From the NCBI GenBank assembly GCA_964016885.1, contig OZ024740.1, positions 250,604,001-250,668,000 of the forward strand: 64,000 nucleotides of DNA. Direction: 5' to 3'. Below the pieces are notes generated by a model, which saw nothing but the letters and a program-made list of their open reading frames with translations, made no database searches and was not told where the DNA came from. Below, one piece after another: positions 10,525 through 11,322 of the stretch. This stretch comes from Eledone cirrhosa (Eukaryota). The position numbers were made by a program, and so were the translations under genes. Within the stretch, counting starts at the first letter, position 1; every line of letters starts with the position of its first letter.

Positions 10525-10564
10525 GCCCTTGAGAAGCCCAACTGGGCGAAACGTACGTAGGTGA
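10525..10564 (+). ncRNA. Hammerhead ribozyme-like motif in PLE 3' pLTR, U3-A8 variant
   Basis: TTGAGAA, P2 GCCC/GGGC, GAAA, palindromic P3 ACGTACGT, GTA cleavage triplet; P1 is weak. Confidence 0.55.
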
Positions 10565-10781
10565 TATTTTCAATAAACATGTTTTAACGGTATATTCTCA
10601 GATTTTTCACTTTCCCACGTGCTTACGCTCTGCTAACTCTCTAGCCCACTAAATATTAACACTTCGAATATTTAATACTGCCGGCACTAGTATCGAGCAC
10701 CTTTGGCATACGCTACTTGGCAAATAACTATATGTATCACCTATCCCTTCTTTTATTCTCTCTTTCTCGATACGTAAATAC

Positions 10782-11175
10782 TATATATATATATATATAT
10801 ATATATATATATATATATATATATATATATATATATATATATATATATATATATATATATATATATATATATATATATATATATATATATATATATACAC
10901 ATATATATATATATATATATATATATACATATATATATATATATATATATATATATATATATATATATATATATATATATACATATACATATATACATAT
11001 ATATATATATATATATATATATATATATTTATATATACATCTATATATATATATATATATATATATATATATATATATATATATATATATATATATATAT
11101 ATATATATATATATATACATATATATATATATATATATATATATATATATATATATATATATATATATATATATA
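10782..11175. repeat. (TA)n microsatellite, representative of dozens of (TA)n/(CA)n tracts in the window
   Basis: About 390 bp of nearly pure TA; source of the YIYIYI pseudo-ORFs. Confidence 0.98.
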
Positions 11176-11285
11176 AAGAAAAAGAGATGAAATCGAAAAT
11201 GCAACTGGAGTCTTATTTTTTTTTTAAATATATATATTTATTTGGTTCCTTTACCGGTTTCGCAGTTCTTCTGCTTTTCAACTCA

Positions 11286-11322
11286 CCTTTTGAAAAGCAG
11301 AGAACTGCGAAACCGGTAAAGG
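11286..11322 (+). ncRNA. Minimal type-I hammerhead, U3-A8 variant, within fold-back 11172-11398
   Basis: P1 CCTT/AAGG, core TTGAAAA, P2 GCAG/CTGC, GAAA, P3 palindrome ACCGGT, GTA; partial antisense copy at 11248-11281. Confidence 0.6.

What the first reader, a model, noticed from the sequence alone, without database searches (positions are those of the whole stretch)
10525..11322. Hammerhead core variants with compensatory U3-A8 in two unrelated families
Seen: cores read UUGAGAA (10529-10535, mirrored near 6190) and UUGAAAA (11290-11296) instead of CUGANGA, while P2, GAAA, palindromic P3 and GUA are intact. Known: C3 pairs with G8 in the active fold, and a U3-A8 swap keeps the pair. Inference: the double change in two different families indicates retained function; standard CUGANGA pattern searches would miss these.
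Basis: partly seen in the sequence, partly recalled or inferred. Interest (0 to 1): 0.72.

Follow-up and report, generated by a model that had tools for sequence, protein, structure and literature searches.

The report
Known variant hammerheads in Penelope retroelements
Two different jumping-gene families in this large genome, likely an animal's, carry a small RNA motif predicted to cut itself, in which one core base pair is U-A instead of C-G; the swap is the norm in both families and is already published for such elements, so these are new examples of a known thing, and cutting has not been tested.

Summary
UUGAGAA (10529-35, mirrored at 6195-89) and UUGAAAA (11290-96, with a fourth, unreported copy at 11281-75) are cores of small type I hammerheads at the 3' ends of two Penelope-like element families. 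Family A looks Hydra-clade; family B's source looks Neptune-type. U3-A8 is the family norm: 1177 of 1205 A matches and 6491 of 6519 B matches. Genome-wide, one scaffold pattern gives 20,892 U3-A8, 12,638 C3-G8 and 457 mismatched. A close relative of family A has C3-G8 in 7 of 11 copies with compensatory helix I and III changes, so the two states split within A's kin, apart from B. This supports selection in source lineages, not activity of these copies: each mirror pair is one inverted insertion, predicted to bury the motif in double-stranded RNA. The variant is published (Perreault 2011; Cervera and De la Pena 2014, in these elements), and this scan noted it before on other DNA (23 notes, at least 8 genomes). 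One untested twist: with A17, U3 could form an inhibitory U3-A17 pair. Cleavage and expression are untested.

The parts
10525..10564 (+). Family A small type I hammerhead: U3 10529, A8 10534, P2 10536-10547, helix III palindrome 10551-10558, predicted cut after A17 10559
6160..6199 (-). Mirror copy of the family A hammerhead in the other arm of the same insertion (core 6195-6189, A17 6165)
11286..11322 (+). Family B small type I hammerhead: U3 11290, A8 11295, P2 11297-11308, palindrome 11312-11317, predicted cut after A17 11318; P2 loop one base shorter than the commonest form
11248..11281 (-).
6104..8549 (-). Left part of the family A insertion: 5'-truncated Penelope-like copy (part of RT, endonuclease, 3' end), frameshifted near 6916; 6104-8178 is the inverted arm
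8550..10780 (+). Right part of the family A insertion: 5'-truncated copy (frames 8545-9453 and 9305-10273, CxCX5C linker, GIY-YIG-type endonuclease read by eye), 3' end with the hammerhead and about 160 extra bases before (TA)n
11172..11460 (.). Family B insertion: fold-back fragment of the 3' end only (arms within 11172-11398, about 95% complementary), set in (TA)n, no ORF
24040..24095 (+). Decayed copy of the C3-G8 relative of family A (core CTGATGA at 24050, helix II overrun by a C run)

Best explanation
These are small type I hammerhead motifs at the 3' ends of two Penelope-like retroelement families, in which U3-A8 replaces C3-G8 family-wide; they are predicted to cut element RNA after GUA when two copies pair, and the window copies are likely inert. 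Shown: the anatomy, the family-wide U3-A8 state, covariation of helices across subfamilies, and a C3-G8 relative of family A. Inferred: two same-strand copies join through the self-complementary helix III, the 3-8 pair positions residue 8 for catalysis, and the cut releases or trims the element transcript. Inferred: selection acted on source elements, and U3-A8 arose separately in A and B. Inferred: each window insertion is an inverted repeat, so a read-through transcript would hold one sense motif paired to its own antisense arm.
For: Family A 1177 of 1205 and family B 6491 of 6519 matches are U3-A8, controls 0. Scaffold counts: U3-A8 20,892, C3-G8 12,638, C3-A8 285, U3-G8 172; controls 88, 26, 49, 38. 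Relative of A: C3-G8 in 7 of 11; its ORF is closest to the family A protein among 7 window proteins (46%, E 3e-78); the two groups are split by a 100/100 branch in a tree built without the core. Structure counts on 18 A-lineage rows: 94.9% of cells paired, 6 of 13 pairs with two-sided change, slid controls 29-52%. On 13 B rows: 96.2% paired, 3 of 12 pairs. Another family has 53 of 58 U3-A8 while position 7 takes all four bases. Two-copy folds with an open core score -23.4 (A) and -19.1 (B) kcal/mol; the A monomer in that shape scores -4.4. The B insertion folds into a -167.8 kcal/mol hairpin. Literature: U3-A8 in Cercyon elements, dimer activity of min-hammerheads; U3-A8 active in vitro as reported by Perreault 2011.
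Against: No cleavage was measured. Copy counts are not independent events: they count amplification of a few sources, family A often matches the scaffold twice, and tandem arrays inflate counts. Rows in the alignments were picked by me from pattern hits that fix P2 and GAAAC, so invariance there is built in, and related rows can beat shuffles without structure. For A, the lowest-energy two-copy fold (-28.3) is not the active-like one (-23.4). Same-strand neighbours needed for a cis dimer are uncommon: 0 of 28 A loci and 3 of 29 B loci within about 3 kb, some loci overlapping. Published in vitro activity of metazoan min-hammerheads is low. Clade names rest on motifs, not on a tree with reference elements; Pfam gave no hit for family A proteins. 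The tree is unrooted.
Confidence: 0.85

Rival explanations
1. The motif still cuts but is tuned down: U3 together with A17 forms a Watson-Crick pair stacked on helix I that competes with U3-A8, like the inhibitory C3-G17 pair. This can be true alongside the best explanation; the rival claim is that the damping is what was selected.
For: Both families have U3 and A17. Adding U3-A17 lowers the two-copy energy from -23.4 to -25.6 (A) and -19.1 to -20.5 (B); predicted pair probability 0.54 in B. A C3-G17 trap is proposed for G17 variants, at least 300-fold slower in minimal ribozymes (PMC3884650). The C3-G8 relative of A also has A17, so the swap creates the possible pair.
Against: Pair probability is only 0.03 in A. 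The gain is about 1 kcal/mol per core in a nearest-neighbour model that ignores the tertiary core. Two other U3-A8 families here have C17, and the two Schistosoma U3-A8 rows I saw end in G and U, so U3-A8 does not need A17.
Confidence: 0.15
2. The motif is a dead relic: both changes were fixed by drift in a source element that no longer needed cleavage, and the counts only reflect copying.
For: Positions 3 and 8 differ in 28 of 1205 A matches, about 1.2% per position, no lower than the 0.5% background among best-matching copies. A B-related subfamily carries GCAA for GAAA at several loci. Some Penelope-like clades spread without canonical hammerheads.
Against: Loops and flanks diverge among subfamilies while helices I-III and the 3-8 pair change on both sides together. 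At least four families hold U3-A8. Mismatched copies are scattered on the tree (6 changes for 8 C3-A8 rows) and are 2 of 26 in the subfamily where they looked enriched.
Confidence: 0.07
3. The window copies themselves are active and cut host or read-through transcripts.
For: Two of the four copies keep every core residue and helix I; the insertions are young (best family A copies 96-99% alike); a partner could come in trans from over a thousand copies.
Against: Each sense motif has its near-perfect antisense arm in the same insertion; no same-strand partner of either family lies in the window; both ORF copies of A are truncated and frameshifted.
Confidence: 0.05
4. A and B share U3-A8 by descent or by exchange of the 3' end, so they are one event, not two.
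For: Both are Penelope-like elements with A17 and no extra base after A9; the tree of A's kin is unrooted, so the C3-G8 relative could be the derived one.
Against: No DNA similarity between the A element and the B source (best E 0.06); endonuclease-region proteins E 0.07; P1, P2 and P3 sequences differ; A's much closer relative has C3-G8.
Confidence: 0.05

Closest known systems
Minimal hammerheads of metazoan Penelope-like elements, including the U3-A8 variant of Schistosoma mansoni Cercyon elements (Cervera and De la Pena 2014, PMC4209133; main text parts 1-2 of 4 and supplementary file 2 part 2 of 3 read)
   Same: Type I layout, short helix I, palindromic helix III for dimer formation, position in the element's terminal repeat, opposite-strand pairs a few hundred bases apart, and the U3-A8 covariation (about 1,300 hits there).
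   Different: Here helix II is 4 bp with no extra base after A9, the palindromes are longer (8 and 6 nt counting A15.1-U16.1), the site is GUA, and the hosts look Hydra-clade and Neptune-type rather than Cercyon.
Natural U3-A8 hammerhead cores (Perreault et al. 2011, PMC3088659; passages read)
   Same: Same 3-8 covariation, described as compensatory and as already shown active in vitro.
   Different: The passages I saw do not tie it to Penelope-like elements or to dimer-type ribozymes.
Hydra clade of Penelope-like elements (Craig et al. 2021, PMC8557442; passages and section 11 read)
   Same: Family A has a C-terminal endonuclease, CxCX5C linker, CxxC and CxH motifs near the end, (TA)n targets, inverted 5'-truncated copy and a tail at one end.
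   Different: The paper reports canonical hammerheads for the clade; family A has U3-A8. Their hammerhead supplement was only keyword-searched, so I cannot say it holds no such case.
Neptune-type Penelope-like elements (motifs as given in PMC8557442)
   Same: The family B source (L061) has RT with a DKG motif, a CX4CxxC linker and a GIY-YIG domain.
   Different: Its ORF ends about 1.4 kb before the hammerhead; the window holds only a 290-base fold-back of the 3' end. Naiad has a similar endonuclease but N-terminal, which does not fit.

Membership tests
Hammerhead ribozyme (type I) | Core C3 U4 G5 A6 N7 G8 A9, G12 A13 A14, A15.1-U16.1, H17 | tested here: met
   All present, with C3-G8 replaced by the published U3-A8 pair
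Hammerhead ribozyme (type I) | Three helices around the core, ends in helix I | tested here: met
   Pairs and two-sided changes counted on A1 and A2; helix I is weak in the window's A copy and lost in the 11281 copy
Hammerhead ribozyme (type I) | Match to an Rfam hammerhead model at gathering score | tested here: not met
   0 matches in the window, which also misses the 15 canonical-core matches, so the models do not cover these small forms; not taken as a defining feature
Hammerhead ribozyme (type I) | Site-specific self-cleavage after residue 17 | not testable with these tools
   Needs in vitro assay or raw RNA reads
Dimer-type hammerheads of Penelope-like elements | Short palindromic helix III that favours a two-copy fold | tested here: met
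   Palindrome duplexes -9.8 and -8.3 kcal/mol; monomer hairpin +2.4 (A) or a loop under 3 nt (B); palindrome changes on both sides in A's relative
Dimer-type hammerheads of Penelope-like elements | Lies in the terminal repeat downstream of an RT-GIY-YIG ORF, same strand | tested here: met
   A: 255 nt after the stop at 10273; B: about 1.4 kb after the ORF in L061, shared with L062 over 3.7 kb at 97%
Dimer-type hammerheads of Penelope-like elements | Two same-strand copies on one transcript | tested here: not met
   Not in this window: partners lie on opposite strands. This bears on activity of these copies, not on family membership
Hydra clade (family A) | CxCX5C linker, no CCHH motif, C-terminal endonuclease, (TA)n target | tested here: met
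   Read by eye in frame 9305-10273 and flanks against the description
Hydra clade (family A) | N-terminal RWK and DKT motifs; placement in an RT tree with reference elements | not tested
   Window copies are 5'-truncated; no reference set was fetched
Neptune-type (family B source) | DKG motif, CX2-5CxxC linker, C-terminal GIY-YIG | tested here: met
   L061 ORFs; Pfam RVT_1 E 5.7e-7, GIY-YIG E 3.4e-7
Neptune-type (family B source) | Placement in an RT tree (Neptune versus Nematis) | not tested
   No reference set was fetched
Non-LTR retrozyme | Head-to-tail tandem non-coding units, each with a hammerhead | tested here: not met
   A and B in the window are inverted insertions of coding elements or their ends; a separate U3-A8 family at L077 does form a 316-bp array

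The most novel reading that the evidence does not exclude
U3-A8 has replaced C3-G8 several times in this genome's Penelope-like elements, with one switch traceable between near relatives, and in the two big families it comes with A17 so that a U3-A17 pair damps cleavage: a selected, tuned-down ribozyme whose natural C3-G8 relative is a ready control.
Probability: 0.15. Interest if true: 0.45.

Novelty: new member of a known kind. Interest (0 to 1): 0.2.

Why it matters
It adds two large families, from two further element clades, to a published core variant. The useful part is the natural pair: family A (U3-A8) and its relative (C3-G8) share helix II and A17 and differ by compensatory changes, which makes a clean test of what the 3-8 pair and a possible U3-A17 pair do in dimer-type hammerheads. 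It also shows that CUGANGA-only searches would miss about 20,000 scaffold matches in this genome. It does not reveal a new kind of ribozyme.

Tried and rejected
Mirror at 6190 as independent support: rejected, same insertion. A transposing C3-A8 intermediate lineage: suggested by four loci that I had picked from the mismatch list; rejected because that subfamily is 24 of 26 U3-A8 and C3-A8 rows scatter on the tree. First tree dropped the 13-nt-P2 rows through a pattern error and was redone (10 of the 11 relative loci are in it, L092 was not picked up). The ORF upstream of B in L054/L064 belongs to another element, since no long match links it to other B copies; L061/L062 give the source. My first structural scans were too strict and missed the window's canonical hammerheads, found later. 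Monomer folds are not significant against shuffles (z -0.2 to -1.7). Rfam: nothing. Pfam on family A proteins: nothing. Sequencing runs: no RNA holder listed, which says nothing on expression; contigs of 2 of the 4 listed runs show no other letter at 10529 or 10534 at the 10% threshold, and mostly C at 10564, but their kind is not on record and they may share the assembly's source. Papers not held: Lunse et al. on dimer-cleaving variants, Przybilski and Hammann 2007, Nelson and Uhlenbeck 2008. Searches with no useful hit: C3U/G8A, 'positions 3 and 8', U3A8, U3-A17 (only the G17 paper).

Full report
What is there. The window lies in a 3.0-Gb genome, likely an animal's, and is rich in (TA)n and Penelope-like element fragments. 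A fourth core lies at 11281-11275 (-). A U3-A8 scaffold pattern gives 5 matches at these 4 sites and none in 100 shuffles.

Two insertions, not four. The A copies are the arms of one inverted insertion, 6104-8178 and 8550-10620, 99.6% identical. Each part holds a 5'-truncated, frameshifted RT-endonuclease frame, and the hammerhead lies 255 bases after the stop on the same strand. The linker reads CxCX5C and the target is (TA)n, which fits the Hydra clade as described in PMC8557442; this rests on motifs read by eye, and Pfam gave no hit. The B copies are the arms of a 290-base fold-back. Its source is seen at L061/L062: RT with DKG, a CX4CxxC linker and GIY-YIG, ending about 1.4 kb before the motif. 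A and the B source share no DNA beyond chance and only a 59-residue RT match at 25%; their endonuclease regions do not align significantly.

U3-A8 is the family norm. With positions 3 and 8 left free, family A gives 1205 matches, of which 1177 are U3-A8; none of the first 100 listed is C3-G8. Family B gives 6519 and 6491. One genome-wide scaffold gives U3-A8 20,892, C3-G8 12,638, C3-A8 285 and U3-G8 172, with reversed-pattern controls 88, 26, 49 and 38; many of the listed mismatches are single changes in the big families. These are copy counts. The scaffold leaves out motifs with an extra base after A9 or a long helix II, often counts A twice, and is inflated by arrays. In the window itself a CUGANGA pattern gives 15 matches against 1.17 by chance, most of them hammerhead-like by eye, so U3-A8 is the minority here.

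Evidence of selection in source lineages. A pattern built on A's helix II with a different palindrome found 11 copies of a relative: 7 C3-G8, and one each of U3-G8, C3-A8, A3-G8 and G3-U8. Its ORF matches the A protein best among 7 window proteins, and a decayed copy sits at 24050 in this window. In a 49-row tree built without the core, the relative (10 rows) and the A subfamilies (39 rows: 31 U3-A8, 7 C3-A8, 1 U3-G8, the mismatches mostly picked on purpose) are split by a 100/100 branch. The tree is unrooted; that U3-A8 is the derived state is inferred from C3-G8 being canonical. On 18 rows, 6 of 13 pairs change on both sides, in helix I, helix III and the 3-8 pair; 94.9% of cells pair, against 29-52% in slid controls. 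On 13 B rows, 3 of 12 pairs do so. A third family keeps U3-A8 in 53 of 58 while position 7 varies, and a fourth forms a 316-base array. The rows came from patterns that fix part of the structure, and they are related, so these counts are support, not probabilities.

No sign of selection on inserted copies. Positions 3 and 8 differ in about 1.2% of A matches per position, against 0.5% background in 33 best-matching rows, some overlapping; the samples differ, but nothing suggests protection. A suspected C3-A8 lineage failed.

How it likely works. Helix III cannot close well in one molecule (+2.4 kcal/mol in A, a 2-base loop in B) but pairs between two copies at -9.8 and -8.3. Two-copy folds with an open core score -23.4 and -19.1; for A a different fold is lower (-28.3). 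By the model of PMC4209133 and the review PMC6765202 (passages), tandem copies on one transcript would pair and cut after residue 17 to process element RNA; measured activity of such motifs is low. The window copies have partners only on the opposite strand, and the B insertion folds into a -167.8 kcal/mol hairpin, so they are likely inert. All of this is inference; no cleavage was tested.

One twist. Both families combine U3 with A17, which can pair on top of helix I. The analogous C3-G17 pair is the proposed cause of slow cleavage in G17 variants (PMC3884650, passages and discussion). The folding model gives a gain of 2.2 (A) and 1.4 (B) kcal/mol per dimer, with pair probability 0.03 and 0.54. 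A search for U3-A17 and related terms returned only that paper; key papers were not held, so I do not claim it is unpublished.

What is known. Cervera and De la Pena 2014 report U3-A8 instead of C3-G8 in Cercyon elements, about 1,300 hits, and opposite-strand pairs; their alignment shows two such Schistosoma rows (supplementary file 1 could not be searched). Perreault 2011 reports natural U3-A8 cores and cites in vitro activity. Craig 2021 describes the inverted structures and the clades (supplement keyword-searched only). Li 2026 (bioRxiv, part 1 of 5) and PMC7151607 (one passage) add nothing specific. Lunse et al., Przybilski and Hammann 2007 and Nelson and Uhlenbeck 2008 were seen only as reference-list titles. 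That G8 acts through the 3-8 pair in catalysis is recalled; the pair itself is cited. This scan holds 23 earlier notes with the same words in at least 8 genomes, one on another piece of this genome; I had read the 2014 paper before that look-up.

Verdict. Real, family-wide and probably selected in source elements, but a published variant in a published setting. New member of a known kind, interest 0.2.

Noticed in passing
window 12619-12690 and 13100-13170 (+): Two C3-G8 hammerhead-like motifs 481 bases apart in a tandem repeat, with a 43-base insert in helix II and an 8-base palindrome in helix III.
   Followed up: partly
window 17882 (-), 18510 (+), 35603 (-), 41079 (-), 41880 (-), 44252 (-), 44346 (+), 45886 (+), 52061 (-), 52098 (+), 52342 (-), 57394 (+): Further C3-G8 hammerhead-like motifs of several families, some with a long monomer-type helix III, some as fold-back pairs; read by eye only, missed by Rfam.
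   Followed up: partly
L051:2512-2554, L020:93-134, L030:147-188, L058, L079:4760-4801: A subfamily related to B with compensatory changes in helices I and II; several loci read GCAA in place of GAAA while L079 keeps GAAA, so a core-defective source may have kept spreading. Not counted genome-wide.
   Followed up: partly
L077 (G000:C1:6519946-6521556): Six U3-A8 hammerheads in a 316-base head-to-tail array set in (TA)n, retrozyme-like, with GUC site.
   Followed up: partly
G000:C1:5738326-5752334 and 14044535-14051131: Long arrays of C3-G8 hammerheads with periods of about 466 and 469 bases.
   Followed up: no
window 19857-20459 (-), 59024-60445 (-), 61706-62819 (+): A Hydra-like family whose first 450 bases after the stop show no hammerhead by my scans; 59024 and 62250 form another inverted pair.
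   Followed up: no
window 34354-34818, 42381-43127, 54867-56558 (all -): More Hydra-like endonuclease or RT-endonuclease frames.
   Followed up: no
window 2917-4964 (-): Non-LTR retrotransposon-like RT and endonuclease frames; 1-300 is repeated at 4607-4906.
   Followed up: no
L099 (G000:C4:19298471): A single copy of A's relative reads G3-U8; probably decay, not followed.
   Followed up: no
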